Source: Verrucomicrobiia bacterium
GTDB taxonomy: Bacteria; Patescibacteriota; Saccharimonadia; Saccharimonadales; JAGQNK01
Assembly: GCA_035489575.1 (NCBI GenBank)
Contig: DATHJY010000006.1
Span: 1 to 52,766, forward strand
Length of the DNA stretch: 52,766 nt
Direction of reading: 5' to 3'
Within the stretch, counting starts at the first letter, position 1, and the number at the start of each line of letters is the position of its first letter. Under the pieces are notes generated by a model. That model saw only the letters and a list, made by a program, of their open reading frames with translations, ran no database searches and was not told the origin of the DNA. Positions 1-35,634 of the stretch are shown in pieces. The translations under genes were made by a program, and so were the position numbers.

Positions 1-460
1 TGGCAGCTTGCGGAACTTGTCCTGTCTTTGTTATTGATTTCAAACGAAATACAGGACTGCACACAGTCCTCGCTGCGCAGGTAGCAGAACCTTCCCTGTC
101 TAATCTGTTTACCCAAAGCCAGCCTGGGCCCACAGATGCAAGTCGGCCCGAGGTCTTACTCTTCAAATCCTACAATACCCGCCAGGAAAGCTCGGGCGGT
201 TTGTATTGTCTTTAGGCGGATCAGGCTTTAGAGAAACAGATTGGACGCCTGATAGCTTGATACCCGCGGTCCGAGGACTGTTTGAGCCCCAGCTTGCTGG
301 GGTGAGTTCCGAGATCGTGGCCTTTTCTGCAGCGCAGCAGGCTGAGCCTGCTGGCAGGCAGAAAAGAGACCATGTCAGGAGCCGGATAGCAAGCTGTCAG
401 GTGGTCAGTCTTGTTTCTATAACCGCCTGTCTGACAAAGACAGTACAAGTACTTATAGGA
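1..460. ncRNA. Large structured RNA candidate, copy R1, cut by the window start; homolog of 8615-9066
   Basis: Conserved blocks occur in the same order as in 8615-9066. These are tgcggaacttgYcctg (9-24 vs 8706-8721), cagtcctcg (64-72 vs 8759-8767), caggctttag (222-231 vs 8885-8894), caggagccgga (376-386 vs 8972-8982) and taaccgcctgt (420-430 vs 9016-9026). The cagtcctcg block pairs with cgaggact (272-279 vs 8935-8942). Only short ORFs with no recognisable protein features overlap it. The strand is undetermined. Confidence 0.5.
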
Positions 461-463
461 TAG

Positions 464-531
464 ACACTTTTCGTCCTTTTGGACTCGTCAGTTCTGCTTT
501 TGCCACTAGTGTGGCACATCAGAAGAAGTGT
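464..531 (-). ncRNA. Type III hammerhead ribozyme (HHR-1)
   Basis: The minus strand reads ACACTT C TTCTG [23-nt loop with GCCAC/GTGGC hairpin] CAGAA CTGACGA GTCC-AAAA-GGAC GAA AAGTGT. The parts are stem III 5' strand, C17 cleavage site, closed stem I, CUGANGA core, closed stem II, GAA core and stem III 3' strand. The core is identical to the copy at 48103-48156, and stem III differs by a compensatory change. Confidence 0.8.
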
Positions 532-3340: not shown

Positions 3341-3424
3341 AAGGCTTCCTAATCTGTTGTGACAGAGTTCACGCTTATGCTAAAGTAGTGATAAGTATAA
3401 AAAACATCAGCGAAAGGTCAGGCT

Positions 3425-3949
3425 ATGACGGCCAAGGGCACCAAAAAAGTACCTGCAAAGTCATCGAATAAGGGTAAACAAGTGAAGAAGGCAAGCAAGT
3501 TACCGGGGTTTTTCAGTCTAAGTAATAAAAAATTCATACTCTTGACGGTTTTTATCGTTGGCTTTGTGGTTGCGGGGTCGTACTGGCTTTATCAGAGTAG
3601 TTCTGCCAGAGTCGCCAAAGACGACAGTACGGTACAGGGGTGCGAGGCTCTAGGTGTTGTGCTCAAGCAGGGCTCTAAAGGTTCATGCGTGAAAGCTGTA
3701 CAAAAAGTTCTAAATAGTGCTAAAACCAAATATGGCAGTACGGCGCATTGGGGCTATTTAACCGAGGATGGAGTCTATGGCCCTGCTACTGCTTTGACGG
3801 TGGCTGCATACCAGAAGCGTGTCAATAGTTCTCCCTTTTTTCCAGATAGACGGCCCATTGATGTAGATGGGTCGGTGGGACCACAGACATGGTTCTGGTT
3901 CCGGCAGATTACTTGTGTCGATGTCAATACGCCTGCCTGCGGGGATTAA
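3425..3949 (+). CDS. Membrane-anchored peptidoglycan-binding-domain protein
   Basis: It has a basic N-terminus, one TM segment and a PG_binding_1-like repeat (VKAVQKVLN...DGVYGPATALTVAAYQ...VDGSVGPQTW). It is a tandem paralog of 3996..4520. Confidence 0.7.
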   Translation: MTAKGTKKVPAKSSNKGKQVKKASKLPGFFSLSNKKFILLTVFIVGFVVAGSYWLYQSSSARVAKDDSTVQGCEALGVVLKQGSKGSCVKAVQKVLNSAKTKYGSTAHWGYLTEDGVYGPATALTVAAYQKRVNSSPFFPDRRPIDVDGSVGPQTWFWFRQITCVDVNTPACGD

Positions 3950-3995
3950 TGATGTCGCTCGTATAGCAATATGTAAATAACAAAGGGGACAGACA

Positions 3996-4520
3996 ATGGC
4001 AGCCCGTGGTACCAAAACAGCATCCGTAAGATCAACAGCGAAAGGCAAGCAAGTGAAGAAGGCAAGCAAGCTACCGGGTTTTCTCAGTTTGAAAAACCAA
4101 AAATTTGTTATGTTACTGGTTTTTGTGGTTGGCTTTGGAGCGGCTGGATCGTACTGGCTCTTCCAGTCTAGTTCTGCTGCACCCGCCAAGCCTGGCTTTG
4201 ATCTCACTAAAGCCTGGGGGTGTAAGGGTACGGATGCCACACTTCGGGCGGCGCCCGGTGGCAAGGTCGGTTCTGAGGGCTCGTGCGCCAAAGCTGCGCA
4301 GAGTATAGTGAATGGTGCGAATCGTCTGTATCCCAATAGTAACTGGTCTATAATAGGAGAAGACGGTAAGTACGGGGGGCAGACGGCCGCCGCTGTGAGT
4401 GCTTATCAGGGATACATGAGAATTTCGGCAGATGGCGTTGTTGGCCCAGTCACCTGGGAAAAAATGCTCGATACGTGTGAGTATTTGCGTCGGCGGGATA
4501 TAGCTCCTTCCGGATGCTAG
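3996..4520 (+). CDS. Membrane-anchored peptidoglycan-binding-domain protein, tandem paralog
   Basis: It has the same length and architecture as 3425..3949. The N-terminus AKGKQVKKASKLPGF is conserved, and the domain motif is DGKYGGQTAAAVSAYQ...ADGVVGPVTW. Confidence 0.7.
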   Translation: MAARGTKTASVRSTAKGKQVKKASKLPGFLSLKNQKFVMLLVFVVGFGAAGSYWLFQSSSAAPAKPGFDLTKAWGCKGTDATLRAAPGGKVGSEGSCAKAAQSIVNGANRLYPNSNWSIIGEDGKYGGQTAAAVSAYQGYMRISADGVVGPVTWEKMLDTCEYLRRRDIAPSGC

Positions 4521-4577
4521 CGTAGTGCCAGGGTCGCCTGGCGCCCTCCTGGGCTAGAAAGGTTTAAGATAAAATAC

Positions 4578-5501
4578 GTGGATCTAGCGAAAATCAAGCG
4601 TGTGGTGCTGTGGGTGGCCGTCTTGGTCGGGTTTTTGGGGTTTGGCCAAAGCGCCTCTGCTGCAACCGGGACAATATACCTAGCCCCGGCGATCACTAAT
4701 CTGACAAATGGTGCAGAAGTATCAATGGCTCTGCGTATCAATCCGGGTGTGGACGTAAACGGCGTACAGGCCGAGATTACCTATGATGGTTCAAAGCTTC
4801 AGCTGGTCTCTGCCAGCGACGCTGGCAGTGCCTTTCCGGAAATAGCAGAACAGAACGTAGCGGCCAATCCTATATCGCTCACCCGAACTACTTCGGGGAA
4901 TACGGTGAACGTAGACTCACTTATTATCACGCTTCGCTTCAAGGCAGTGGCGGCCAGTGGCAGTACCACGATATCTCTCACGGGCAACGCTGCCCAAGGC
5001 ACGACAGTTACCAGTCCTGGGGTGCAGGGAGCAACCGTTACTTTTAGCTCTTCTAGCTCGCCGGCCCCACCAAGCTCACCCACTCCACCTACACCGTCTG
5101 GCGGTAGTAGCACGAGGCAACAGAACCAAAGTACTCCGCAGCCAGAAGATGTACCAGATGTGCCCGGAGCGGTCAATCAGCTGCCCGGAGTTGACCAGCT
5201 AACAAACGACCCCCAGCCTCTAACAGTACCCGACCCACGGGTATCGCACCGTATCTGGTGGCTCTTTGGCGTACTTGGCGTCATCGTTGTGCTGGGCGGT
5301 GCTTACTGGCTGATTCGTCGCCACCGATCTACACCGGCAGAGCTGGCTGCCGACCATCCCATTGATCGTACCTGGGCTACTCCGCCTGTCCACACGGAAG
5401 AAGACGAAGAAACCGACGAGCTGCTGAGCCATATCCCCGGCACGGCCAAGCCAGACCCTGGCAGTATCATTACGCCCAAGGCACCCCCCGAAAAAAAGTA
5501 A
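4578..5501 (+). CDS. Cohesin-like domain surface protein with Pro/Ser/Thr linker and C-terminal TM anchor
   Basis: The start codon is GTG and a signal peptide is present. The segment GTIYLAPA..GAEVSMALRINPGVDVNGVQAEITYDGSKLQLVS resembles cohesin domains. It is followed by a PS-rich linker and a TM segment (WWLFGVLGVIVVLGGAYWLI). Confidence 0.55.
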   Translation: MDLAKIKRVVLWVAVLVGFLGFGQSASAATGTIYLAPAITNLTNGAEVSMALRINPGVDVNGVQAEITYDGSKLQLVSASDAGSAFPEIAEQNVAANPISLTRTTSGNTVNVDSLIITLRFKAVAASGSTTISLTGNAAQGTTVTSPGVQGATVTFSSSSSPAPPSSPTPPTPSGGSSTRQQNQSTPQPEDVPDVPGAVNQLPGVDQLTNDPQPLTVPDPRVSHRIWWLFGVLGVIVVLGGAYWLIRRHRSTPAELAADHPIDRTWATPPVHTEEDEETDELLSHIPGTAKPDPGSIITPKAPPEKK

Positions 5502-5508
5502 CCTGCTT

Positions 5509-5537
5509 TTGATTAAGATTGCTATTTATGGTATAAA
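5509..5537 (+). promoter_or_regulatory. Sigma70-type promoter (TTGATT, 17-nt spacer, TATAAA)
   Basis: TTGATT lies at 5509-5514 and TATAAA at 5532-5537 with a 17-nt spacer. It is about 100 nt upstream of the GTG at 5638. Confidence 0.5.
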
Positions 5538-5637
5538 TAATTTGTTATCTCTTGAGGTAGCCTGTGTGATTGCGCACAGAAATTGACAACAAGGAAGAAG
5601 CAAGCAACAGGCTAGACACCAAAAAAGGAGGGGTCTA

Positions 5638-5922
5638 GTGGAGCTTACGTGGAAGCAGACTATCGCGCTTGTATCGCTCGCCGGCATTGCCTATTACTGT
5701 CGGAGCCAGATACCGGGCATCGCCGCGTTTTGTTACGACTGGCGATGGGCGTTCGTGTTCGGTTTGGCCGGTTCGGTGATTGCACTGACTCTGGGTTTCA
5801 TTGTGTTGCTCATGGTCATGCCACCGGAAGGAGAACATACCAATACCGGACCTCCGAAAGGGTACGTCTACCGACCCCCGCCTGACGAAGACGAAGGCGA
5901 AGACATCTCCTGGATGCTCTGA
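5638..5922 (+). CDS. Small hypothetical membrane protein (94 aa) with moderately elevated GC
   Basis: The GTG start is preceded by AGGAGG. It has two to three hydrophobic segments and an acidic C-terminus. A structured 3' UTR and a hammerhead ribozyme follow on the same strand. Confidence 0.6.
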   Translation: MELTWKQTIALVSLAGIAYYCRSQIPGIAAFCYDWRWAFVFGLAGSVIALTLGFIVLLMVMPPEGEHTNTGPPKGYVYRPPPDEDEGEDISWML

Positions 5923-5947
5923 CACGAATGCGGGTATCAGAATCTGT

Positions 5948-6087
5948 TCAAGGTCTCTGTTGTTCTAAAATGCTCCTCCGGGTGCCCGTTCGCCCTGATC
6001 CACCAATCGCACCGCAGGTGTGCTTGGCGAACCAGTCCGAATTATCACTTGAAGTGGTACATTTTGCCAACAAAGACGAGACCTTGA
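5948..6087 (+). ncRNA. Stem-closed structured 3' UTR element (S/E motif, copy 1)
   Basis: A closing helix forms between tcaaggtctc (5948-5957) and gagaccttga (6078-6087). The internal 32-mer at 6027-6058 matches 34590-34621 at 25 of 32 positions by hand count. The blocks tccggGtg and cgccctg are shared. A variable hairpin (gcacc/gtgtgc here, cgtaac/gttacg in copy 2) occupies the same position. Confidence 0.5.
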
Positions 6088-6122
6088 GCAGGTTCTCTGC
6101 CCCCTTATTCTTCCTTGTCGTC

Positions 6123-6189
6123 TCTCGATTCCATAACTGATAGTTATGCTGATGAGTCCTCCCTGGTTTGTGCAGGACGAAAATCGAGA
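6123..6189 (+). ncRNA. Type III hammerhead ribozyme (HHR-2)
   Basis: The plus strand reads TCTCGATT(6123-6130) C(6131) CATAACT-GAT-AGTTATG(6132-6148) CTGATGA(6149-6155) GTCCT-[13-nt loop]-AGGAC(6156-6178) GAA(6179-6181) AATCGAGA(6182-6189). All invariant core positions are present. Stems I and II are loop-closed and stem III is open. Confidence 0.85.
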
Positions 6190-6206
6190 AGTGATAGACT
6201 GGTGTA

Positions 6207-7652
6207 ATGAGCTCTTCGACTTTTCTGTTCTATGACTTAGAGACTTCGGGTGTTAGCGCCCGGGATGCGCGCATTATGCAGTTTGCTGGCCAGCGGACAG
6301 ACCTGCAGCTCAATCCCGTGGGTGAGCCGTTTAACTATTTGGTTCGCCTGAGCGACGATGTCCTGCCCGAGCCGGACGCCATTCTGATTACGGGCATCAC
6401 GCCCCAAAAAACCTTGGCCGAGGGAATGCACGAAGCTGAATTCTTAAAGATATTCCATCACGATATTGCCGCTCCAGGCACTATCTTTGTGGGCTTTAAT
6501 ACCGTACGGTTCGACGATGAGTTTATGCGCTACACTATGTATCGCAACTTTTATGACCCTTACGAATGGCAGTGGCAAAATGGCCGGTCACGTTGGGATA
6601 TCTTGGACGTAGTACGCATGACACGTGCCCTGAGGCCGCAGGGAATACAGTGGCCGTTTGACCCCAAGGGCAAGCCAACCAACCGACTAGAGTTGCTGAC
6701 CAAGCTGAATAAGCTGGATCACAGTCATGCTCATGACGCGCTCAATGACGTCCTGGCTACCATTGCGGTTGCTAAGATGATCCGCGACAAACAGCCCAAG
6801 CTATTTGATTTCTTGCTACAGATGCGCGACAAAAAAGAGGTGGCCAAGCTGGTCCAGGGTGGGCAGCCGTTTGTGTACAGCTCTGGCAAATACCCCAGCG
6901 AGTTCGAAAAAACTACTGTGGTTGGCAAGCTGGCTGACCATCCCCAGGCCCAGTCGGCCCTTGTCTTTGACCTGCGACACGATCCAGAGCCTTTCCTAAA
7001 ACTCAATCCCAATGAATTGGCCGAGGCCATGCGCTGGAGTCGCGACGAAAATGCCATCCGACTGCCGGTCAAGACCATCAAATTCAACCGTTGTCCGGCC
7101 ATAGCGCCCCTGGGAGTGCTCGATGCCGATAGCCAACAGCGGCTCAAGTTGGATCCGGCTGTCTATATGGCCAACTTCAAAAAACTGCAGGCTGCCCAGG
7201 AGCGCCTGAGTACCGGCGTATTGCAGGCGTTGGAGTTACTCGACAAGAAGATGCAAGCTCGCTTGCTGCAGGATGAGGCCGACGTAGATACTCGTTTGTA
7301 CGACGGCTTTTTTGACACCCAGGACAAGCTAAAGATGAGCACCGTGCGGGCTGCCACTGCCGAAGAGCTGGGTGGCTTAGACCTGACCTTTAAAGACGAT
7401 CGCCTGGAGGCACTGCTGCCACTGTATAAAGCCCGGAATCACCCCAAGTCACTGACCGCCGAAGAGCGGGCACTATGGGAAACGTTTCGGGAACGCAAGC
7501 TACTGGGCGGTGGCGACCAAAGCCGGGCCGCCAAGTTCTTTAACCGGCTGAGCGAGTTGTCGCAGCGCACCGACCTGACTGGCGAGCAGAAATATCTGCT
7601 GGAAGAGCTGCAATTATACGGCCAAGGTATACTGCCCGTTACTGAGCAATAG
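6207..7652 (+). CDS. sbcB: Exodeoxyribonuclease I
   Basis: There is strong similarity to E. coli ExoI along the full length. Matching segments include FLFYDLETSG, ILITGITPQ, FNTVRFDDEF..YRNFYDPYEWQW..SRWDILDV and HDALNDVLATIAVAK. Confidence 0.9.
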   Translation: MSSSTFLFYDLETSGVSARDARIMQFAGQRTDLQLNPVGEPFNYLVRLSDDVLPEPDAILITGITPQKTLAEGMHEAEFLKIFHHDIAAPGTIFVGFNTVRFDDEFMRYTMYRNFYDPYEWQWQNGRSRWDILDVVRMTRALRPQGIQWPFDPKGKPTNRLELLTKLNKLDHSHAHDALNDVLATIAVAKMIRDKQPKLFDFLLQMRDKKEVAKLVQGGQPFVYSSGKYPSEFEKTTVVGKLADHPQAQSALVFDLRHDPEPFLKLNPNELAEAMRWSRDENAIRLPVKTIKFNRCPAIAPLGVLDADSQQRLKLDPAVYMANFKKLQAAQERLSTGVLQALELLDKKMQARLLQDEADVDTRLYDGFFDTQDKLKMSTVRAATAEELGGLDLTFKDDRLEALLPLYKARNHPKSLTAEERALWETFRERKLLGGGDQSRAAKFFNRLSELSQRTDLTGEQKYLLEELQLYGQGILPVTEQ

Positions 7653-8614: not shown

Positions 8615-9066
8615 ATACTTTCTTGTGTTGACAAGAAAGTATCCAAAGAAGCAACCGGCGAACTGGAAACAACAATTGAAAAACTGCGTCGAGCTATCCG
8701 GCTCCTGCGGAACTTGCCCTGCCTTATTATTGTCTTCAATGGAAAGCAGGGCTTCAAACAGTCCTCGGACCGCGGCTTACCTCGACGCAGTTTTTCATCG
8801 GTTTCCACTGAGCCGGCATAGGCCTCCATGGATACAAGCCCTAAAGGGCTTGTTTTTTAATAGCCGAAGGCTGCTGCTTGGAACCAGGCTTTAGCCAAAC
8901 TGATTAGACGGCGGTAACCCGGTTGCTCGCGCTCCGAGGACTAGCCTTTAGGCCGACTAAAAGGAGTCCCGCAGGAGCCGGACAGCCGGGTTACCGGCGG
9001 CTAGTCATGTTTGGGTAACCGCCTGTTGTTTCTTTGGTACCTTTCTTGTCAACACAAGAAAGGTAC
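8615..9066. ncRNA. Large structured RNA candidate, copy R2 (complete); homolog of 1-460
   Basis: It is bounded by two 22-nt segments that are exact reverse complements (ctttcttgtgttgacaagaaag inside 8615-8642 and ctttcttgtcaacacaagaaag inside 9037-9066). A 12-bp long-range helix forms between 8697-8708 and 8971-8982. A second helix forms between 8760-8767 and 8935-8942. The conserved blocks are in the same order as in 1-460. No convincing ORF is present. Confidence 0.55.
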
Positions 9067-17411: not shown

Positions 17412-17455
17412 ATATTTCAGGGTCGAACCCTGTACAGGGTTCGACCCTGAAATAT
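17412..17455. repeat. REP-like perfect palindrome (21-bp arms) upstream of the Y1 transposase
   Basis: The sequence is atatttcagggtcgaaccctg-ta-cagggttcgaccctgaaatat. The core tttcagggttcgaccctgaaa recurs at 18090-18120. Confidence 0.8.
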
Positions 17456-17466
17456 CGGTGTATAAT

Positions 17467-18081
17467 ATGCTTATGCCAAGTAGGAACCGAGTGAAAGTAT
17501 ACGGCCCTCAGCACGTCTATCACGTATATAATAGGGGCAACAACAAAGAACTAGTCTTTCGAGTGTCAGAGGATTACGCGGTTTTCCTTAATATCTTAAA
17601 AAGATATCTCGGAGAAAAGCAAGAGAATGATTCGCTAGGGAGATTGTATAAGAACTTTAGTAGCGAGATTGAGCTAGTGGCCTTTTGCTTGATGCCAAAT
17701 CACTACCATTTACTCCTGTATCAAGAGACCGCAGATGGCATTACAAAACTAATGAAAAGTATTACTGCCTCTTACACGGGCTATTTCAATAAAAAATATG
17801 AACATGTGGGCCATGTTTTTCAGGGGACGTTCAAGGCTTCGCTGATTGATCAAGAGAGCTACTGGCAGCATATTTCACGCTATATTCACTTAAATCCCCG
17901 GCAGTGGCGAAACTGGAGGTGGTCAAGCTTGCCTTATTATCTTGGTGAAAAACAATCTGATTGGGTGAAGCCGGAGCGTTTGTTAGGGGTATTTGAGGGG
18001 CATGATTACTTGAGTTTTGTATCTGACCATGAAGACCACAAGGCTATGCTCGATGAATTAAAGACCATGTTGGCCAACTAG
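17467..18081 (+). CDS. IS200/RAYT-type Y1 (HUH) transposase-like protein
   Basis: The motifs HVYNRGNN, FCLMPNHYHLLL (HUH) and YIHLNP are typical of the Y1_Tnp / REP-associated tyrosine transposase family. Alternative starts lie at 17458 (GTG) and 17473. Confidence 0.75.
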   Translation: MLMPSRNRVKVYGPQHVYHVYNRGNNKELVFRVSEDYAVFLNILKRYLGEKQENDSLGRLYKNFSSEIELVAFCLMPNHYHLLLYQETADGITKLMKSITASYTGYFNKKYEHVGHVFQGTFKASLIDQESYWQHISRYIHLNPRQWRNWRWSSLPYYLGEKQSDWVKPERLLGVFEGHDYLSFVSDHEDHKAMLDELKTMLAN

Positions 18082-18089
18082 AGGTCGTT

Positions 18090-18120
18090 ACCTATTTCAG
18101 GGTTCGACCCTGAAATAGGT
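18090..18120. repeat. REP-like palindrome downstream of the Y1 transposase
   Basis: The sequence acctatttcagggttcgaccctgaaataggt is a perfect palindrome. It shares its core with 17412-17455. Confidence 0.8.
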
Positions 18121-21433: not shown

Positions 21434-23245
21434 CTAGCGGTAGCCTTCGGCTTGTTTACTGAATAGTTCGTGGTACAAGCCTTTCTTTTTCATGAGGGCC
21501 TGGTGTGATCCTTGCTCGACAATCTTGCCGTGGTCTATCACGATGATGCGGTTGGCTCGGCGTACGGTGCTAAACCGGTGGCTGACTATCAGGGCCGTTT
21601 TGTCCTGATAGTGGTCAAAGATGTTGTTGAAGATGTCGTATTCGGCCTTAGCGTCTATGGCGCTGGTTGGCTCGTCTAGAATGATCATGTCGGCATTGCG
21701 GTAAAAGGCTCGGGCCAGGGCGACGCGCTGCCATTGTCCACCGCTGGGCTCGACACCTTTTTTGAAGCTGCTGTCCAGCACCGTGTCCCAGCCGTGGGCG
21801 TAGCCCTTGACCATCTCGTCTACGTTGCCAAAAGCCGCCGCTTGCTCAAGCTGTTTGCGGTTGGCTTTCTGGGTAGAGCGGCCAATCTCGATGTTTTCGG
21901 CAATGCTCAGCGGGTAGTGGTTGAAGTCTTGGAATAATGTGGCCAGCTGGGCGTACCAGGTCTCTATGGCTACCTCTTGCAGGTCCTGTCCGTCCACCAA
22001 AATCTGTCCGCTGGTGGGCTGGTAAAAACGGAGCAGCAGCTTTATGAGCGTGCTCTTGCCGGCACCATTTTCGCCAACCAGGGCAACATGCTCGCCCGAT
22101 TTTATTTCTATATTCAGGTTCTCAAAGATTGGTTCGGTCTGGTCTGGATAAGTAAATGACACGTCTTTGAAAACGATTGAGGGTGTAGCGCCAGCGGGCA
22201 GGGCGATGGCGTTTGGTGGATCGACAATACGAGGCTGAGCATCTACCAGGCTAAAGTAGCTGTCGGCAAACAACAAGCCCTCTTGCATACGGGTGAGGGT
22301 GCCAAAAATGCTGTTCAGGGCGCCACCAATGCGCAGCAGGGCACCAGACAAAAAGAAATAGCGCTCTAAAGAAATAGCGTGACTCAGGAATTGTTTTAGC
22401 AGTATCACGGCACCGGTAGCTGTGCCTCCCGCCTCTAGGACTTTGGTCAGCATGAGGGAACGGCTAGCTTTGCGGTACTTGCCCTCTTGTTCTCTATAAA
22501 ACCCTTGGTTCATGGTATCTATCTTGTTCAGGACAAAACTGGAAGCTTGAGAAGTCCGCAGCTCCATCTGGCCCTTTGCCTGACGAATGATGTATTCCAG
22601 ACCCCAAAAGATATGCCGAAAATCGCCCTTGCTGTCCCAGACAAACCACTGCATCTTGGCCATCCGGCTCTCGCCAATAAGGCTGGGTATCAAGAATAGG
22701 GCAATGAGTGGTACTAGCCACCAGGTGATTTGGGATACCACCGCTGTGATAGCCAGAAAGCGGATGAGGCCATAGATCAGCTCCAGGCAGGCGTCGGACA
22801 GGTTGGGTAGTTGCCAAATGTAGGCGCCGCTAATTTTGTTGAGCTGATTGCGCGTACTGGTTTCGTAAAAGCTGCCCAGATCAAATTTGCTGACAGATTT
22901 CAAAAAACTATTGATAGACCACTGTACCAGCGAGAAATACAGCATGCGCTTGCAGTAGCCCATGATCCAAAACCCAATGCCAATGACCACCACGGCCGTG
23001 ATATCCACCCACAGCCACAGCCAAATATTTTGCGTCTGGCCGGTCGCTACGAACAAGGCCAGCAGCGAGCCGAGCTTGGCGGTGGCGTAGATAGAGGCGA
23101 TGGTGCCACCAACCTCGACCAACGCACCCACGAAGTAGCCTACTATAGACGCACGGCGGATGTTCCAGCAGATTCGCAGCATGCGCAGCCCGATGCTCAA
23201 ACGTCGCTTGAACGTGAGGTCTGTGTCGTCTGTTTTATTCTTCAT
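21434..23245 (-). CDS. ABC exporter, fused permease/ATPase half-transporter (4 of 4)
   Basis: It has a six-TM-type N-domain. The NBD carries Walker A GENGAGKST, signature SGGQWQRVALARA and Walker B IILDEPTSAID. Confidence 0.9.
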   Translation of the reverse strand: MKNKTDDTDLTFKRRLSIGLRMLRICWNIRRASIVGYFVGALVEVGGTIASIYATAKLGSLLALFVATGQTQNIWLWLWVDITAVVVIGIGFWIMGYCKRMLYFSLVQWSINSFLKSVSKFDLGSFYETSTRNQLNKISGAYIWQLPNLSDACLELIYGLIRFLAITAVVSQITWWLVPLIALFLIPSLIGESRMAKMQWFVWDSKGDFRHIFWGLEYIIRQAKGQMELRTSQASSFVLNKIDTMNQGFYREQEGKYRKASRSLMLTKVLEAGGTATGAVILLKQFLSHAISLERYFFLSGALLRIGGALNSIFGTLTRMQEGLLFADSYFSLVDAQPRIVDPPNAIALPAGATPSIVFKDVSFTYPDQTEPIFENLNIEIKSGEHVALVGENGAGKSTLIKLLLRFYQPTSGQILVDGQDLQEVAIETWYAQLATLFQDFNHYPLSIAENIEIGRSTQKANRKQLEQAAAFGNVDEMVKGYAHGWDTVLDSSFKKGVEPSGGQWQRVALARAFYRNADMIILDEPTSAIDAKAEYDIFNNIFDHYQDKTALIVSHRFSTVRRANRIIVIDHGKIVEQGSHQALMKKKGLYHELFSKQAEGYR

Positions 23246-23248
23246 ATA

Positions 23249-25012
23249 TTAATCCTCTAAAAACCCGCCGGACTGGTGAGCCCAAAGTTTGGCATAGGTG
23301 CCTTTCTGTTTTAGTAGTTCTTTATGCGTGCCTTCCTCTATGATAGCCCCCTCTTCCAGGACCACAATGCGGTCCATTCGCTGAATGGTGCTGAGCCGGT
23401 GGGCAATCACGATAGCGGTGCGGCCCTTCATGAGCTCCCAGAGGGCTGCCTGAATAAGCACTTCGCTCTCAGAATCAAGGGCACTGGTGGCTTCGTCCAG
23501 GACCAAGATGGGTGCGTCTTTTAGCATAGCCCGGGCAATAGCTACCCGCTGACGCTGTCCGCCGGATAGCTTTACGCCGCGCTCACCCACCGGCGTATCG
23601 TATTGTTTGGGAAGCTGGGTTATAAACTCGTCTGCATGGGCTAGTTTGGCGGCTTTTTCTATCTGCTTGGTGGTGGCATCGGGTTTGCCGTAGGCGATGT
23701 TTTCACTGAGTGAACGGTGAAACAGGAGGGGTTCTTGGGGTACGTAAGCAATGGCTTGGCGCAAGCTGGTCTGGGTGACATCGGCAATATTCTGGCCATC
23801 GATCACGATCTGGCCATCGTCTATGTCAGAGAATCGCAGCAGCAACTTGGTCAGGGTGGTTTTGCCTCCGCCACTGGCACCAACCAGGCCCACCTTTTGG
23901 CCTGGTTGGATCACTAGGCTCATGTGCTCAAACAGGGCATCTGAATTATCTGCATGGGTAAAAGTTACATCCTCGAAGACGATTTTGCCCCGCTTGGCCG
24001 CCAGCTTCTGGGCATTCTTTTTGTCAGTCACCTCTATAGGCTGGTTCAGTATCTCAGTCATTTCCGAAGCATCTGTCAGGTTTTGTTCGATGTTGCGCGT
24101 CAAACTACTCAGGCCCCACAAGACAGACATGATCTGTGTCATATAGACCTGCACTAGTACCAGGGTGCCTACTGTCACATGGCCATGTTGCACCAGGAAT
24201 AGGGAAAGTACCAGTACGGTAGCTTGGAGTAGTATCATCATGGAGCCAAAGGTGGCATCGTTCTTGACGGCTCGCATCCAATATATATACTTTTTTTGCG
24301 CCCGGTCGACGGCCAGCTCATTAAACATCTTTGACTCTGGCTCTTCTGTGGCAAATGACTTAATAGCACTGGCATTGCCAATACTGTCTGCTAAGTAGCC
24401 GGTCAATTTTGTCTCGGCCTTGGCGACGGCTTTTGAGAATCTGATACGCTTCTTAGTCAGCCAGTAATTAAGCGCCACAAAAGCAGCAGACCAGACTACC
24501 ATAACTGCTGCTAGCGGGAGCGAGTAAAAGGCAATGACCACGGCCGACAGCACGACCAATATAAACATCTGCGACACATTGACAACCAAGGCGTCAGTCA
24601 GCGCCACATAGGCGTTAGCAAATCTGTTGGTCTGCGTAACTAATGATCCACTAAAACTGTTGGCATGGAACCGCTGACTTTGGTAAATCAAGTAATTATA
24701 GGCTCGCCGGTACAGATGTGGCTGCACTTTGGTTTCCATCCGCGATAGCTGAAGCAGACCAAAATCCAGGCATATCTGAGCTGCAACGCCCAGTCCAACA
24801 AATAGGGCAATATCAGTCGCAAAGCTACTCATATCTAACTGTCCTTGCTCGCTCCGGATGATTCTGTCAAAGGCTCGGGCTACAACCAAGGGCATCAGAA
24901 GTTTTTGCATGAACATACCACCAGTCCACAGGCCTACTGTAGAGAAGAGCAGGTTTTTATAGCGCAGGTTTTCGCGCAGGTATAGTTTTAGGGTTTGGGC
25001 TCCAACAGACAT
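23249..25012 (-). CDS. ABC exporter, fused permease/ATPase half-transporter (3 of 4)
   Basis: The NBD carries Walker A GASGGGKTT, signature LSGGQRQRVAIARA and Walker B LVLDEATSALD. The architecture is MsbA/MdlB-like. Confidence 0.9.
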   Translation of the reverse strand: MSVGAQTLKLYLRENLRYKNLLFSTVGLWTGGMFMQKLLMPLVVARAFDRIIRSEQGQLDMSSFATDIALFVGLGVAAQICLDFGLLQLSRMETKVQPHLYRRAYNYLIYQSQRFHANSFSGSLVTQTNRFANAYVALTDALVVNVSQMFILVVLSAVVIAFYSLPLAAVMVVWSAAFVALNYWLTKKRIRFSKAVAKAETKLTGYLADSIGNASAIKSFATEEPESKMFNELAVDRAQKKYIYWMRAVKNDATFGSMMILLQATVLVLSLFLVQHGHVTVGTLVLVQVYMTQIMSVLWGLSSLTRNIEQNLTDASEMTEILNQPIEVTDKKNAQKLAAKRGKIVFEDVTFTHADNSDALFEHMSLVIQPGQKVGLVGASGGGKTTLTKLLLRFSDIDDGQIVIDGQNIADVTQTSLRQAIAYVPQEPLLFHRSLSENIAYGKPDATTKQIEKAAKLAHADEFITQLPKQYDTPVGERGVKLSGGQRQRVAIARAMLKDAPILVLDEATSALDSESEVLIQAALWELMKGRTAIVIAHRLSTIQRMDRIVVLEEGAIIEEGTHKELLKQKGTYAKLWAHQSGGFLED

Positions 25013-25021
25013 GATTTCTCC

Positions 25022-26809
25022 TTATTCCTCTATAAATCCACCGGATTGATGCGCCCACAATGTAGCATAGGTGCCTTTTTTGCGCAGCAGCTGGGTATGG
25101 CTGCCTTCCTCTATGATCCGGCCGTCTTCTAGCACTATAATGCGGTCCATTTTTTGGATAGTGCTCAGGCGGTGGGCGATGACAACGGTGGTCCGGCCCT
25201 TCATGAGCTCGCGCAAGGCGGCTTGGATCAAACGCTCTGACTCACTATCTAGGGCACTGGTGGCTTCGTCAAGCACCAGTATGGGTGCGTCTTTTAAGAT
25301 GGCTCGGGCAATGGCTATACGTTGTCGCTGTCCGCCAGACAGCTTGACGCCACGTTCGCCAACCAATGTTTCGTAACCTTTTGGCAGTTTTTTGATGAAC
25401 TCGTGCGCATGGGCTTTGCGGGCTGCCTCCACTATCTCTTGTTCGGTTGCTTGGGGGTTGCCATAGGCAATGTTTTCACGAATACCGCGGTGGAATAGCA
25501 GTGGTTCTTGCGGTACGTAGGCAATGTGTTTGCGCAGATCTGCCTGGGTAATGTCGGCAATATTCTGGCCATCTAACAATATCTGGCCTTTGTCGATGTC
25601 ATTAAAGCGCAGCAGCAATTTGGTCAGGCTGGTCTTGCCCGAGCCCGAATGTCCAACTAGGCCAATTTTTTCGCGTGATTTGATGGCTAGGTTCAGGTCT
25701 ACGAACAGCGGATCGTCCGTGTTTGAGCCATCGTGAGCAAAGCCCATGTGTTGGAATGTAATCGCACCTTTGCCAATGCGAGCCGGCTGGGACTCAGCGG
25801 AATCTTTGACGCTTGGCTCTGTCTGCAGGACTTCCATCATGGACTGAGCATCACCAAACCCACGGTTATAGTTGCGTAGGGCGGTGTTGCAGAATTCCCA
25901 CAGTCTGTCGCGTAGGGTGCTGCTATAGGCAAATACCAGGAACACGGTTGCTACCGGCGCGTTGTAAACCACGACACTGGCGACGGCAATGGTGATGGCG
26001 GCAGCGTTGAGCAGCGCATTGATAAGCGAGAAGCTTATCTGGGCCCGCATAGATGCGACCATGTATCTTATATGAGTATGCCGCCATTTTTCGGTGCCTT
26101 CCATATAACGCTGACCCTCTGCTTTTTGGGCGGCAAAGCTTTTGATGGCCATGACATTGGTTATGCTGTCGGCCAAGTTGCCCGTCTGGCGATTGCTGGC
26201 ATCGGCTTCTTGCCGGGCGCGTAGCCGTACTGACTTGGTGATATAGATGGCTGCAACCACAAAAAAGACGCTAAAAGCGTTCAGGAAGAATACAAACAGC
26301 CTGGCCTTGTTCCACAGAATGACGCTCATAAATATGACAGACCACAACAGACCACCCGTGTTGTATACGGTGGTGTCAGTGATGCGAGTGTAGGCACTGG
26401 CCAGCTTATTTGCTTGCGAAACTAGCGAGCCGCCAAAAGTGTCGGCATGAAAGGTAGCGCTCAGTTTCATGAGGTGGTCAAAGACCTCTTGGTGGATGTC
26501 TCTGACAACCTTGCCCTCGAGCATCCAGTTGCAATACATGTTAATGCGCCAAATAACCACGCCGCCCAGGGAGGCAACTGCTACTACCGTAAGTATGTCT
26601 GGCCCAAAACTGCCCCATAAGTCGCCCCGCACGAAATTACCACTCGCCAGTCTGTTCAGGATGTTGGCAATCATGAGCGCTGGCAAAAATTCATTGAAAA
26701 GCAACGCCAGTGGCACCGTGAGGTACATGCCCCAAAACAAGAACGGGTAGCGTCGGCCATGACGCCAAAAGTATTTGAGAATTGCAGTGTTGGTGGTCAT
26801 TGGGTTCAT
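25022..26809 (-). CDS. ABC exporter, fused permease/ATPase half-transporter (2 of 4)
   Basis: The NBD carries Walker A GHSGSGKTS, signature LSGGQRQRIAIARA and Walker B LVLDEATSALD. Confidence 0.9.
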   Translation of the reverse strand: MNPMTTNTAILKYFWRHGRRYPFLFWGMYLTVPLALLFNEFLPALMIANILNRLASGNFVRGDLWGSFGPDILTVVAVASLGGVVIWRINMYCNWMLEGKVVRDIHQEVFDHLMKLSATFHADTFGGSLVSQANKLASAYTRITDTTVYNTGGLLWSVIFMSVILWNKARLFVFFLNAFSVFFVVAAIYITKSVRLRARQEADASNRQTGNLADSITNVMAIKSFAAQKAEGQRYMEGTEKWRHTHIRYMVASMRAQISFSLINALLNAAAITIAVASVVVYNAPVATVFLVFAYSSTLRDRLWEFCNTALRNYNRGFGDAQSMMEVLQTEPSVKDSAESQPARIGKGAITFQHMGFAHDGSNTDDPLFVDLNLAIKSREKIGLVGHSGSGKTSLTKLLLRFNDIDKGQILLDGQNIADITQADLRKHIAYVPQEPLLFHRGIRENIAYGNPQATEQEIVEAARKAHAHEFIKKLPKGYETLVGERGVKLSGGQRQRIAIARAILKDAPILVLDEATSALDSESERLIQAALRELMKGRTTVVIAHRLSTIQKMDRIIVLEDGRIIEEGSHTQLLRKKGTYATLWAHQSGGFIEE

Positions 26810-26812
26810 GAT

Positions 26813-28594
26813 TTAGTCTTCCAGAAATCCACCGGACTGGTGTTTCCATAGTGAGGCGTAAATGCCATTGTGTTGCAGCAACTCTTTATGCGAACCTTCC
26901 TCGACCACGGCGCCTTTTTCCATCACCAAGATACGATCCATCTTTTGGATAGTGCTGAGGCGGTGAGCGATCACAATGGCTGTGCGGCTTTCCATGAGTT
27001 TCCACAGGGCGTCTTGGATGAGCTTTTCGCTCTCAGAATCCAGAGCAGAGGTGGCTTCGTCCAGCACCAAGATAGGTGCATTTTTGAGCATGGCTCGGGC
27101 AATGGCGATTCGCTGGCGTTGTCCACCAGACAGCTTGACGCCGCGTTCGCCCACCAGCGTGTCATAGCCGTCAGACAGCTCCATGATGAATTCGTGGGCG
27201 TGGGCTACTTTAGCGGCAGCCTCGATCTCGGCCTGAGTAGCATTCGGTTTGCCGTAAGCAATATTCTCTGCGAGCGATCGGTGAAACAGCAACGGCTCTT
27301 GAGGCACATAGGTAATGGCCTGGCGCAGGTCAGCTTGGGTTACGGCGGTGATGTTTTGGCCGTCAATGAGAATCTGGCCGTCATGAATGTCCATGAACCG
27401 GAGCAGCAGTTTGGTAATGGTGGTCTTGCCACCACCACTGTGCCCCACCAGGCCGATCTTTTCGCCGGGCTGGATAGCAAAGCTGAGGTTCTTGAATAGC
27501 TTTTTGTTGGTTCTGTTCCCGGAGTAGCCAAAAGCTACGTCAGAAAACTCGATACCCCCGTGTTTGAATCGGGCAGGCTCTGGTTGCTCGGGGTCTGGGA
27601 CTTCCGGACCTAGACTGAGTATTTCGGTCATGTCAGCAGCATCTCCGAAGGAACGGTTCATGTTCTTCATAACAAACATGGCTTGCCACAGTCTCTCTGT
27701 CAGGCCGTAGGTATATGTAACAATCAAATACAGCGAGCCAATCTGGGCATTAAGCCGTGTGATGGCAAAGATTCCAACCCCAAAGGCCATGATGTTCAGG
27801 ATGGTAATAGTACTGTGACTAACATTTTCGTTCCTGAGTTGGGTGCGCATGAGCCTGAACTGAGCATCTACGGTGTGTGCTGTTTGCTTGCGGAAAATAT
27901 TCAGCTCTTGCTTTTCACCGGCAAAGGCTCGCACTGTTCCTACGTTAGTGATGTTATCTGCCAGCTTGGCTGTGCGTTCGCTCTCGCTGGTGGCGGCTGC
28001 GCGGTTTATGGGAGCTTGCTTGCGCATAAGAAAGAACATAATCACAAAGTACACCAGCGTTATGACGCTAAAGATACCGGCGTATAGTGGGTTAGTCAAA
28101 AATAGGATAGTCAAAGAGGCTATCAGCGCCGTCAGGCCGTTGACGATATTCCAGGTAAAGTCAGCCCAGAACTTGTCATGGGCGGCCGTGAACTTGTTGA
28201 CATTGGAAACTAACGAGCCACCAAAACGGTCGGCATGAAACTTGCTACCCATGTGCTGCAGGTGGTCAAACAGGTATTCTGCAGTTCGTCGTTCACTCAA
28301 GATGCTGTACTTCCAGGTGCAAATAGTCTGGGTCCGCCAGAAAAACAGGCCCGCCATGCTTGAGACGATGTACAGCAGAATATAGGGTTGCAGGGTTGCG
28401 AACGTCAGGGGCTGACCAGCTGCCGAAAGTTCCTGCATGCGGTTAAAGGCGGTCGCAATAATAAGGGGCGGCAAGACATCCGCTAGTAGCACAGCGAAGA
28501 CTACCCCAATAGTGCCATACCAAAACAGGAATGGATAAGGGCGGGTAAATTGCCAAAAGAGGCGCAGCGTTTTCTTAGTTGTAGACACAGCCAT
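26813..28594 (-). CDS. ABC exporter, fused permease/ATPase half-transporter (1 of 4)
   Basis: The NBD carries Walker A GHSGGGKTT, signature LSGGQRQRIAIARA and Walker B LVLDEATSALD. Confidence 0.9.
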   Translation of the reverse strand: MAVSTTKKTLRLFWQFTRPYPFLFWYGTIGVVFAVLLADVLPPLIIATAFNRMQELSAAGQPLTFATLQPYILLYIVSSMAGLFFWRTQTICTWKYSILSERRTAEYLFDHLQHMGSKFHADRFGGSLVSNVNKFTAAHDKFWADFTWNIVNGLTALIASLTILFLTNPLYAGIFSVITLVYFVIMFFLMRKQAPINRAAATSESERTAKLADNITNVGTVRAFAGEKQELNIFRKQTAHTVDAQFRLMRTQLRNENVSHSTITILNIMAFGVGIFAITRLNAQIGSLYLIVTYTYGLTERLWQAMFVMKNMNRSFGDAADMTEILSLGPEVPDPEQPEPARFKHGGIEFSDVAFGYSGNRTNKKLFKNLSFAIQPGEKIGLVGHSGGGKTTITKLLLRFMDIHDGQILIDGQNITAVTQADLRQAITYVPQEPLLFHRSLAENIAYGKPNATQAEIEAAAKVAHAHEFIMELSDGYDTLVGERGVKLSGGQRQRIAIARAMLKNAPILVLDEATSALDSESEKLIQDALWKLMESRTAIVIAHRLSTIQKMDRILVMEKGAVVEEGSHKELLQHNGIYASLWKHQSGGFLED

Positions 28595-28874
28595 AGCGGG
28601 GTTTCCTTACTCTCAGGTACACAAATAGTCTTACGCCTAAGTGTAGACGAACTAGTATTATTGTTTGTGATTTTTGTCTCTTCTGTACTATTGAATCGGC
28701 TCGTCCGATCCAAGGGCCCAGGTGGTAATATCCATTCTGCGCCAAAATTGCTATTTTTGGCTGCAAATCACCAGGATTTTCGCTCAAAAATTATCAATTC
28801 TGGCATCAGAAGCGAATTGCCACCTGGATCCTAGCAAATAGCGGATTGATCTAGTCAATCATAATAGAAAGGAA

Positions 28875-34478: not shown

Positions 34479-34501
34479 GGGTGAACCCGTAGGCCCCAGA
34501 A

Positions 34502-34657
34502 CCTATCCAAAATCTCCAGTTCCGTACCAAAACCACCCATTCCGGTGACAATCCGCCCTGGCCCGCCAGCCGTAACTACGGTTACGCCAGACGAACCAGA
34601 ACGAATTCTCCCTCGAAATGGATTGATTTTGGCTACGAAAGCGAGATCTTGGATAGG
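34502..34657 (+). ncRNA. Stem-closed structured 3' UTR element (S/E motif, copy 2)
   Basis: A closing helix forms between cctatccaaaatctc (34502-34516) and gagatcttggatagg (34643-34657) with one mismatch. Its internal blocks are homologous to 5948-6087, including the 32-mer 34590-34621. Confidence 0.5.
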
Positions 34658-34670
34658 CCCTTAACCGATC

Positions 34671-34712
34671 GTGCCTGGCGAAATGTAGCGCATTTCGCCA
34701 GGCACTCTAACT
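34671..34712 (+). terminator. Rho-independent terminator
   Basis: A perfect 15-bp stem forms between gtgcctggcgaaatg (34671-34685) and catttcgccaggcac (34691-34705). It is followed by tctaactttta. Confidence 0.65.
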
Positions 34713-34737
34713 TTTATAGCCATGTATAATAAAGGCC

Positions 34738-35427: not shown

Positions 35428-35439
35428 GCTGTTATACCG

Positions 35440-35601
35440 ATAGCCAGCCTACTACAAACTTCGCCTCCTACCCAGTGTCTCAGCGGCCAGAAACTCCCAT
35501 ACCTCGCTCAACGTATCAACGGATATGCCTCACTCGGTCTGAAAGCTTCTGACTCACTGAGGCATCTGGCTAAAAGACGAGGTTTGTAGTACGCTGGCTA
35601 T
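35440..35601. ncRNA. Stem-closed intergenic element of about 160 nt, class unknown
   Basis: A 20-bp closing helix forms between atagccagcctactacaaac (35440-35459) and gtttgtagtacgctggctat (35582-35601) with one mismatch. An internal hairpin pairs gcctca with tgaggc. It lies between the GDSL hydrolase gene and pepP. Confidence 0.35.
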
Positions 35602-35634
35602 GACTGTTCGTCAAGGGAGACAGGGGAGACTTTT

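What the first reader, a model, noticed from the sequence alone, without database searches (positions are those of the whole stretch)
34502..34657. Conserved stem-closed element of about 150 nt shared by two unrelated cassette 3' UTRs (with 5948-6087)
Both elements start a few nucleotides to tens of nucleotides after the stop codon of a GC-rich cassette gene on the plus strand. Both are closed by a 10-15 bp helix. They contain the same ordered blocks:
- tccggGtg
- cgccctg
- a hairpin whose stem sequence differs but pairs in both copies
- a 32-mer with 25 of 32 identical positions (6027-6058 vs 34590-34621)

The upstream coding sequences are unrelated (a 94-aa membrane protein vs a DUF4214-like secreted protein). 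The element is therefore a portable non-coding module. Copy 1 is followed by a hammerhead, and copy 2 by a strong terminator.
Basis: seen in the sequence. Interest (0 to 1): 0.65.

Follow-up and report, generated by a model that had tools for sequence, protein, structure and literature searches.

The report
Hairpin MITE family in a Saccharibacterium
The two look-alike 160-base hairpins are old copies of a small non-coding jumping-DNA element (a MITE) that borrows the end sequences of an IS5-type insertion sequence and is scattered through this tiny soil Saccharibacteria genome; it is an ordinary kind of element, though I found no description of it for this phylum.

Summary
Window 5937-6098 and 34496-34663 are homologous (blastn E 6e-10) and each folds into one long rod hairpin (z -6.6 and -5.8).

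They are not a private two-copy 3'-UTR RNA module. They belong to a dispersed family:
- 16 full-length copies in the 1.52-Mb genome, plus truncated ones.
- About 30 copies in a sister genus.
- Hits in 12 of 41 related Saccharimonadales genomes.

Evidence that the family is a MITE:
- The core is 162 bp, with 19-bp terminal inverted repeats (GARCCYRTYCCARATCTCC).
- It has a 3-bp TWA target-site duplication: 15 direct against 1 inverted among TWA/TWA flanks.
- Tandem copies share exactly one TTA.
- The terminal 20 nt match the ends of a 940-bp IS5-family insertion sequence (DUF4096 plus DDE, NF033580) found in the sister genus. They are 100% identical there and 19/20 for window copy 2.
- The own genome has no such transposase, so its copies are orphan fossils.

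Evidence against a dedicated strand-specific RNA:
- Copies lie sense, antisense and between convergent genes.
- G-U pairs are not enriched over A-C (39 against 50).

Still unexplained: stem covariation is strong, and the UACG-tipped apical core is shared with sibling families that have other termini. No Rfam match; no paper found.

The parts
34496..34663 (+). Family copy 2 (the flagged element). It consists of a 3-nt 5' flank CCA, the 162-nt core 34499-34660, and a 3' flank TTA.
   Evidence: CM R1 scores 179.2 bits, E 1.9e-42. nhmmer scores 182.7 bits. It folds as a rod hairpin, z -5.8.
34499..34517 (+). 5' terminal inverted repeat of copy 2, GAACCTATCCAAAATCTCC.
   Evidence: With the A before it, 19 of 20 nt match the end of the G001 IS5-family insertion sequence. 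It pairs with 34642-34660.
34642..34660 (+). 3' terminal inverted repeat of copy 2, GGAGATCTTGGATAGGCCC. The outermost bases have decayed from GGTTC to GGCCC.
   Evidence: Sequence read; family alignment.
5937..6098 (+). Family copy 1. The core 5940-6095 is 156 nt. It is the most diverged full-length copy in this genome.
   Evidence: CM R1 scores 112.6 bits. blastn to other copies gives E 2e-19. It folds as a rod hairpin, z -6.6.
28712..28833 (+). Shortened relative of the family (122 nt), lying antisense between two minus-strand genes.
   Evidence: CM R1 scores 50.6 bits, E 6.7e-11. MFE is -50.2 kcal/mol. Context.
35438..35603 (+). Sibling-family rod hairpin with different termini (ATAGCCAGCC...GCTGGCTAT) but the same apical core (CAACGTATC-AACG-GATATGCC).
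   Evidence: CM R1 scores 35 bits, E 4.4e-7. Inverted repeat I2. Tip census.

Best explanation
[quoted passage not shown] It is a 162-bp non-coding palindromic DNA with 19-bp terminal inverted repeats. An IS5-family DDE transposase supplied in trans binds those repeats. The element is cut out and pasted into TWA (TAA/TTA) sites, and the three target bases are duplicated.

**State in this genome.** No matching transposase remains here. The 16 copies, including the two in the window, are therefore old, diverged (about 65-80% identical), probably immobile relics.

**Why they sit where they do.** Stop codons supply TAA targets, and the short spacers just after genes are the sites that tolerate an insertion in this compact genome. 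That is why many copies abut gene ends.

**Inferred, not shown.** When a copy is co-transcribed, its rod hairpin must form in the mRNA. It may then act incidentally as a 3' barrier or an RNase III site.

**Shown:** the family, the TIRs, the TSD, the TIR match to an IS, the lack of a transposase here, and the mixed orientation.
**Inferred:** trans-mobilisation by that IS family and any RNA effect.
For: **Copy number and spread**
- 16 full-length copies lie on 9 contigs, plus truncated copies and solo-end remnants.
- The sister genus G001 has about 30 loci. Hits occur in 12 of 41 relatives, but in only 1 of 150 genomes sampled evenly across the phylum.

**Boundaries**
- Ends are sharp at GARCC...GGYTC, and the modal core length is 162 nt.

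**Target-site duplication**
- Among copies with TWA on both sides, 15 are direct (TTA/TTA or TAA/TAA) and 1 is inverted. TTT/TTT, ACA/ACA and AAT/AAT pairs also occur.
- Tandem copies in G001 are joined by exactly one TTA.

**Parent-type insertion sequence**
- G001:C5 carries a 940-bp element bounded by exact inverted GAACCCATCCAAAATCTC.
- It encodes DUF4096 plus DDE_Tnp_1. It matches NF033580 'IS5 family transposase' at 142.6 bits against a cutoff of 110, and has an A9 frameshift site.
- Its terminal 20 nt are 100% identical to G001 MITE copies and 19/20 to window copy 2. There is no similarity further in.

**No partner in the own genome**
- tblastn with this transposase finds nothing.
- The two DDE_Tnp_1 genes present have unrelated ends.

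**Orientation**
- Copies are about 10 sense, 3 antisense, 2 between convergent genes and 1 unclear.

**Occupied and empty sites**
- A copy lies upstream of uvrA in G001, and none does in the window.
- A sibling element is inserted precisely in G001 at a site that is empty in this genome (L052 against C13:200650).
- In 5 of the 6 nearest of 80 Saccharimonadales sbcB loci the Obg-like gene directly abuts sbcB. The islet carrying copy 1 is absent from all 6.

**Consistent outside knowledge**
- A 3-bp TWA duplication is typical of the IS5-related PIF/Harbinger group (PMC4482050).
Against: - No transposition event was observed.
- The only matching IS found has an extra frameshift near the orfA N-terminus. 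It may be defective, or this may be a MAG assembly error.
- Only 4 of the 16 own-genome copies keep a perfect TSD.
- The interior is unrelated to the IS, so the element is not a simple deletion derivative.
- The interior stems covary far more than the controls: 28 of 54 pairs have double changes, against 15.8 +/- 1.9 in shuffles and 4-9 in slid registers. Conserved asymmetric loops are kept as well. A plain selfish-DNA model does not predict this by itself.
- Sense orientation is somewhat favoured (about 10:3).
- Families with other termini share the same apical core.
Confidence: 0.85

Rival explanations
1. The element is primarily a functional structured RNA module. It would be a 3'-UTR stabiliser, processing site or terminator that marks the ends of accessory-gene transcripts, and its spread by transposition would be secondary (a domesticated MITE).
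For: - The rod fold is very stable.
- Covariation is strong, with 28 of 54 pairs changed on both sides and 0 of 500 shuffles reaching that.
- On the strand the CM scores best, the apical loop reads C(UACG)G, a UNCG-type tetraloop (own knowledge). That tip is conserved across sibling families.
- About 10 of the 13 copies lying between co-directional genes are sense.
- Both window copies sit right after accessory genes, next to a hammerhead and a terminator.
Against: - Three family copies are antisense to both neighbouring genes. Sibling families also occur between divergent genes (10 cases) and antisense (8 cases).
- G-U/U-G cells number 39 and A-C/C-A cells 50, so there is no single-strand RNA signature.
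- No promoter or discrete RNA ends are known.
- Copy 2 needs a separate canonical terminator just downstream.
- Most relatives lack the element entirely (29 of 41).
Confidence: 0.1
2. The element is a REPIN-like palindrome mobilised by the RAYT/IS200-type Y1 transposase encoded in the same window (17458-18081).
For: - Two Y1_Tnp genes exist in the genome.
- The one in the window is flanked by perfect palindromes, as RAYTs are (I7 and I18).
- The element is a long hairpin found in many copies.
Against: - The palindromes flanking the Y1 gene (CAGGGTTCGACCCTG) share nothing with the element.
- The element has a 3-bp TSD and classical TIRs that match a DDE-type IS. By my own knowledge, Y1 and REP systems do not produce these.
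Confidence: 0.03
3. The elements are attC-like recombination sites at the ends of integron-type gene cassettes.
For: - They are imperfect hairpins of attC-like size.
Against: - The ends are GARCC...GGYTC, not RYYYAAC...GTTRRRY.
- Copies are dispersed over 9 contigs and are not in arrays.
- Orientation is mixed.
- The TSD and the match to IS ends point to transposition instead.
Confidence: 0.01

Closest known systems
Bacterial MITEs derived from IS5-family insertion sequences; eukaryotic Tourist/PIF-Harbinger MITEs are the analogue
   Same: - Small non-coding element.
- TIRs identical to those of a DDE IS5-family IS.
- 3-bp TWA target duplication (PIF/Harbinger: TWA, PMC4482050).
- Many dispersed copies that outlive the transposase.
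   Different: - The interior is unrelated to the IS; only the terminal 20 nt are shared.
- The whole element is one near-perfect rod hairpin with covarying stems.
- No named ISfinder entry could be checked, because that database is not among the tools.
- My assignment to the IS1031/IS427 subgroup (3-bp duplication, ends GAG/GA) rests on memory of the ISfinder family table.
Correia/NEMIS elements of Neisseria, ERIC of enterobacteria and RUP of Streptococcus (long-hairpin MITEs)
   Same: - Palindromic repeats of about 100-160 bp with TIRs.
- Short AT-rich target duplication.
- Intergenic, often co-transcribed, and folding into long RNA hairpins.
   Different: - No sequence relation.
- Different host phylum.
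- The RNA processing effects known for Correia (own knowledge) are untested here.
Rickettsia palindromic elements (RPE)
   Same: - Palindromic repeats in a reduced genome.
- One copy (C5:6434-6601) is read through as the C-terminal end of an ORF.
- Core plus TSD is 165 nt, a multiple of three.
   Different: - Nearly all copies of this family are intergenic.
- Open frames through the element are common but not universal.
- RPEs have no known parent IS (own knowledge).
REP/REPIN elements with RAYT
   Same: - Hairpin-forming dispersed repeats.
- A RAYT-like gene is present in the window.
   Different: - This element has a TSD and DDE-type TIRs.
- The palindromes at the RAYT gene are unrelated to it.

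Membership tests
MITE (non-autonomous DDE-transposon derivative) | Small size and no coding capacity for a transposase | tested here: met
   The core is 156-162 nt. tblastn with the matching transposase finds no homolog in the genome.
MITE (non-autonomous DDE-transposon derivative) | Terminal inverted repeats | tested here: met
   The terminal helix has 17 pairs, and 89% of its cells are paired across 15 copies.
MITE (non-autonomous DDE-transposon derivative) | Target-site duplication of fixed length | tested here: met
   A 3-bp TWA duplication, with 15 direct against 1 inverted among TWA/TWA flanks, plus 3 other identical triplets. Tandem copies share one TTA. Only 4 of the 16 copies in the own genome are still perfect.
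MITE (non-autonomous DDE-transposon derivative) | Multiple dispersed copies | tested here: met
   16 full-length copies on 9 contigs, and about 30 loci in G001.
MITE (non-autonomous DDE-transposon derivative) | TIRs shared with an autonomous IS | tested here: met
   The 940-bp IS5-family IS in G001 (L075 834-1773) shares its terminal 20 nt, at 100% with G001 MITE copies and 19/20 with window copy 2. The IS copy may carry a disabling frameshift.
MITE (non-autonomous DDE-transposon derivative) | Insertion polymorphism (filled versus empty sites) | tested here: inconclusive
   The site upstream of uvrA is filled in G001 and has no element here, but the spacers do not align. A precise filled/empty pair was found only for a sibling family (L052). 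The sbcB-upstream islet is absent in relatives as a whole block.
Rfam structured RNA families | Covariance-model match at or above the gathering score | tested here: not met
   No matches in the window at gathering threshold. In E-value mode only miRNA-like hairpin noise appears, at 21 bits or less.
REPIN/RAYT system | The repeat matches the palindromes flanking the RAYT gene, and there is no TSD | tested here: not met
   The RAYT-flanking palindrome CAGGGTTCGACCCTG is absent from the element, and a TSD is present.
Integron attC | R''/R' core sites (RYYYAAC / GTTRRRY) and same-orientation arrays next to intI | tested here: not met
   The ends are GARCC/GGYTC. Copies are dispersed and mixed in orientation. 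intI was not searched for.
Intrinsic terminator | GC-rich hairpin directly followed by a U-run | tested here: not met
   No T-run follows the family's 3' end. Copy 2 is followed by a separate terminator-like hairpin at 34671-34716.

The most novel reading that the evidence does not exclude
The rod hairpin itself is a selected module. MITE families with different termini (TWA|GARCC... and TATAGC/TATAAC...) keep three things in common:
- the same length, about 162-168 nt;
- covarying stems;
- one shared UACG-tipped apical core of about 35 nt.

This would mean that Saccharibacteria maintain, or that their transposons must carry, a common hairpin scaffold with a function of its own. Two possible functions are:
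- a single-strand DNA fold needed for transposition;
- an RNA 3'-end or stability element that, together with the hammerheads, delimits accessory-gene transcripts.
Probability: 0.18. Interest if true: 0.6.

Novelty: new member of a known kind. Interest (0 to 1): 0.33.

Why it matters
- **Annotation.** These hairpins should be masked as mobile DNA in Saccharibacteria (TM7) genomes, not called as RNA genes or regulatory 3' UTRs.
- **Markers.** They give markers of recent against ancient transposon activity. The sister genus still has the IS and fresh duplications; this genome holds only fossils.
- **Genome biology.** A 99%-complete 1.5-Mb epibiont-type genome still carries about 40 palindromic repeats. 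These tend to lie beside lineage-specific accessory genes.
- **Open question.** The covariation and the core shared across families are worth a dedicated look, but they do not change the basic classification.

Tried and rejected
- **Rfam.** The window at gathering threshold and both copies in E-value mode gave no family. Only a sub-threshold hammerhead beside copy 1 and miRNA-like noise appeared.
- **RAYT/REPIN link.** PF01797 finds 2 genes, but their flanking palindromes are unrelated.
- **Own-genome DDE transposases as partners.** The two PF01609 hits have ends GGGGTTTCGTGATTCAC, which are unrelated. PF13359 gave none.
- **Deletion-derivative origin.** There is no similarity to the IS beyond the terminal 20 nt.
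- **Strand test by G-U against A-C.** No asymmetry was found.
- **Translatable-element idea for this family.** Open frames through the element are frequent but inconsistent.
- **Metagenome scan with the DUF4214 protein, looking for near-identical strains.** Only two distant hits (40% and 52% identity) came back, with no element in them.
- **Flank mapping of 22 G001 loci (20 with the family-type TIRs and 2 sibling-family) onto this genome.** Most flanks have no homolog, so these copies sit in variable DNA.
- **Literature for IS1031/IS427 subgroup properties.** No usable table was found. That assignment rests on memory.

Full report
**1. Observation**

Window 5930-6110 and 34485-34670 align end to end. 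A blastn search of copy 2 against the whole 1.52-Mb assembly recovers copy 1 at E 6e-10. Copy 1 hits a third locus at E 2e-19. Each stretch folds into one long rod hairpin: -66.1 and -55.2 kcal/mol, z -6.6 and -5.8, with 0 of 200 shuffles as stable.

Both lie 17-20 nt after the stop codon of a plus-strand gene. One gene encodes a 94-aa protein with no Pfam hit. The other encodes a DUF4214 protein.

Three corrections apply.
- The element is longer than flagged. The cores are 5940-6095 and 34499-34660.
- The closing helix is 17-19 bp.
- The quoted 32-mer is one base out of register.

**2. It is a dispersed family, not a pair**

nhmmer and a covariance model (R1, built from 15 copies) find 16 full-length copies on 9 of the 14 contigs. 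They also find shortened copies and two solo-end remnants that sit directly after TAA stop codons. The window holds four members.

The assembly is 99% complete. sbcB neighbours identify the lineage as Candidatus Saccharibacteria / Saccharimonadales MAGs.

R1 hits occur in 12 of 41 relatives. The sister genus G001 has about 30 loci, and other families of the order have 21 and 13 matches. In 150 genomes spread evenly over the phylum only one other genome hits.

**3. Anatomy**

The ends are sharp: NNN|GA(A/G)CC...GG(C/T)TC|NNN, with a modal core of 162 nt. The outer 19 nt form terminal inverted repeats with consensus GARCCYRTYCCARATCTCC.

The flanking triplets are TAA or TTA in many copies. Where both sides are TWA, they are identical in 15 cases and mutually inverted in 1. 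An inverted-repeat extension would give the opposite pattern. TTT/TTT, ACA/ACA and AAT/AAT pairs also occur. In G001 several copies stand head to tail, separated by exactly one TTA. This is a 3-bp target-site duplication at TWA.

In 7-9 of the 16 own-genome copies this flanking TWA is the stop codon of the neighbouring gene, or lies within 20 nt of it.

**4. Parent insertion sequence**

A Pfam DDE_Tnp_1_2 search of relatives found one gene in G001. Around it, the motif GAACCCATCCAAAATCTC occurs exactly, in inverted orientation, 940 bp apart.

Between these ends lie:
- a DUF4096 orfA;
- a DDE orfB (NF033580 'IS5 family transposase', 142.6 bits against a cutoff of 110);
- an A9 slippery run joining the two.

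The terminal 20 nt of this IS are 100% identical to G001 MITE copies and 19/20 to window copy 2. Nothing further in is similar. One extra frameshift near the orfA start may make this IS copy defective, or it may be an assembly error.

The own genome has no homolog of this transposase. Its two other DDE genes have unrelated ends.

This fits the state of the copies. G001 has the IS and mostly intact duplications. This genome has only diverged copies, and 4 of 16 keep an intact duplication.

A 3-bp TWA duplication is the hallmark of the IS5-related PIF/Harbinger group (PMC4482050). By my recollection of the ISfinder table, the IS1031 subgroup of IS5 also makes 3-bp duplications and has GAG ends. 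I could not verify this in the held literature.

**5. DNA element or RNA gene?**

I called genes with a dicodon model.

| Set | Sense between co-directional genes | Antisense | Between convergent genes | Between divergent genes | Unclear |
|---|---|---|---|---|---|
| 16 family copies | about 10 | 3 | 2 | 0 | 1 |
| 37 rod hairpins with the shared tip | 16-17 | 8 | 2 | 10 | 0 |

Stem cells that are G-U/U-G number 39, and A-C/C-A number 50. Neither strand therefore shows the wobble tolerance expected of a constrained RNA. Rfam has no match.

**6. Occupancy**

- In 5 of the 6 nearest of the 80 sbcB loci the Obg-like gene directly abuts sbcB. None of the 6 carries the islet.
- Here a 2.9-kb islet (3341-6206) intervenes. 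It holds four small genes, copy 1 and a hammerhead-like fold.
- G001 has a copy upstream of uvrA where the window has none.
- A sibling element in G001 sits at a site that is empty here, with the flanks otherwise conserved.
- Most G001 copies lie in DNA with no counterpart in this genome.

**7. What remains odd**

- The hairpin is maintained by compensatory change. 28 of 54 pairs have double changes, against 15.8 +/- 1.9 in shuffles (0 of 500 reach the observed value) and 4-9 in slid registers.
- Part of this lies in the TIR helix, where both ends must fit one transposase. The interior helices covary too, while conserved asymmetric loops are kept.
- At least 35 rod hairpins in this genome share a TAnC-(UACG/UAUG)-GnTA tip and a core of about 35 nt, although they fall into at least two terminus classes.
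- Possible causes are selection for fold-back single-strand DNA during transposition, self-templated repair of the palindrome, or an RNA role. I regard these as open.

**8. Verdict**

This is a real element, correctly noticed. It is a MITE family tied to an IS5-family insertion sequence, and it is present here as orphan relics.

The kind is well known. I found no description of this family or its host phylum: no papers combine Saccharibacteria with 'miniature inverted-repeat', and one irrelevant paper turned up for Patescibacteria, 'insertion sequence' and MITE.

Earlier notes of this scan describe similar palindromic elements in other Saccharibacteria. I treated them as leads. I tested the duplication, the parent IS and the conserved tip independently.

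Noticed in passing
window 6123-6189 (+): A type III hammerhead-like fold lies 28 nt after copy 1. Its parts are stem III TCTCGATT/AATCGAGA, C17 at 6131, stem I 6132-6148, CUGAUGA 6149-6155, stem II GUCC...GGAC with a 15-nt loop, and GAAA 6179-6182. Rfam RF00008 gives only 19 bits (cutoff 48.5, E 0.23).
   Followed up: partly
window 17412-18117: An IS200/RAYT-like Y1 transposase gene lies at 17458-18081 (PF01797, E 3e-10). A perfect 44-nt palindrome (17412-17455) precedes it and a matching arm (18098-18117) follows; the core motif is CAGGGTTCGACCCTG. A second Y1 gene is at C14:3004-3237.
   Followed up: partly
window 3341-6206: A 2.9-kb lineage-specific islet lies between an Obg-like 424-aa gene and sbcB. 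It holds two paralogous 174-aa genes, a cohesin-domain protein, a 94-aa protein, copy 1 and the hammerhead. In 5 of the 6 nearest relatives checked (of 80 Saccharimonadales sbcB loci) the two flanking genes are directly adjacent.
   Followed up: partly
window 35438-35603 (+) and own genome generally: At least 35 rod hairpins of about 165 nt in the genome share a UACG/UAUG-tipped apical core, but they fall into at least two terminus classes (TWA|GARCC... and TATAGC/TATAAC...). The window member at 35438-35603 is of the second class.
   Followed up: partly
window 40-500 and 8618-9062: Several shared blocks of 30-58 nt and long inverted repeats link these two regions, for example 43-nt arms at 8618-8660 and 9020-9062. 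No Rfam hit. The nature of this is unknown.
   Followed up: no
window 21434-28594 (-): Four tandem genes of about 590-600 aa lie here. The last three (23249-28594) are paralogues, with 300-nt blocks at 71-74% identity repeating every 1773-1791 nt.
   Followed up: no
L075 1777-1831 (G001:C5): A mini-element of about 55 nt, made of little more than two TIRs (GAACTATCCAAGGTCTCTC...GAGGTTTGGGATGGGCTC), sits directly after the IS. Only the TTA triplet lies between them.
   Followed up: no
own genome C5:6412-7548 (-): A 378-aa ORF reads straight through a family copy (6434-6601), so its last 60 or so codons are element-encoded. The 5' junction carries a 21-nt tandem duplication (GATGCCAAGAACCTAYCCAAG).
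   Followed up: no
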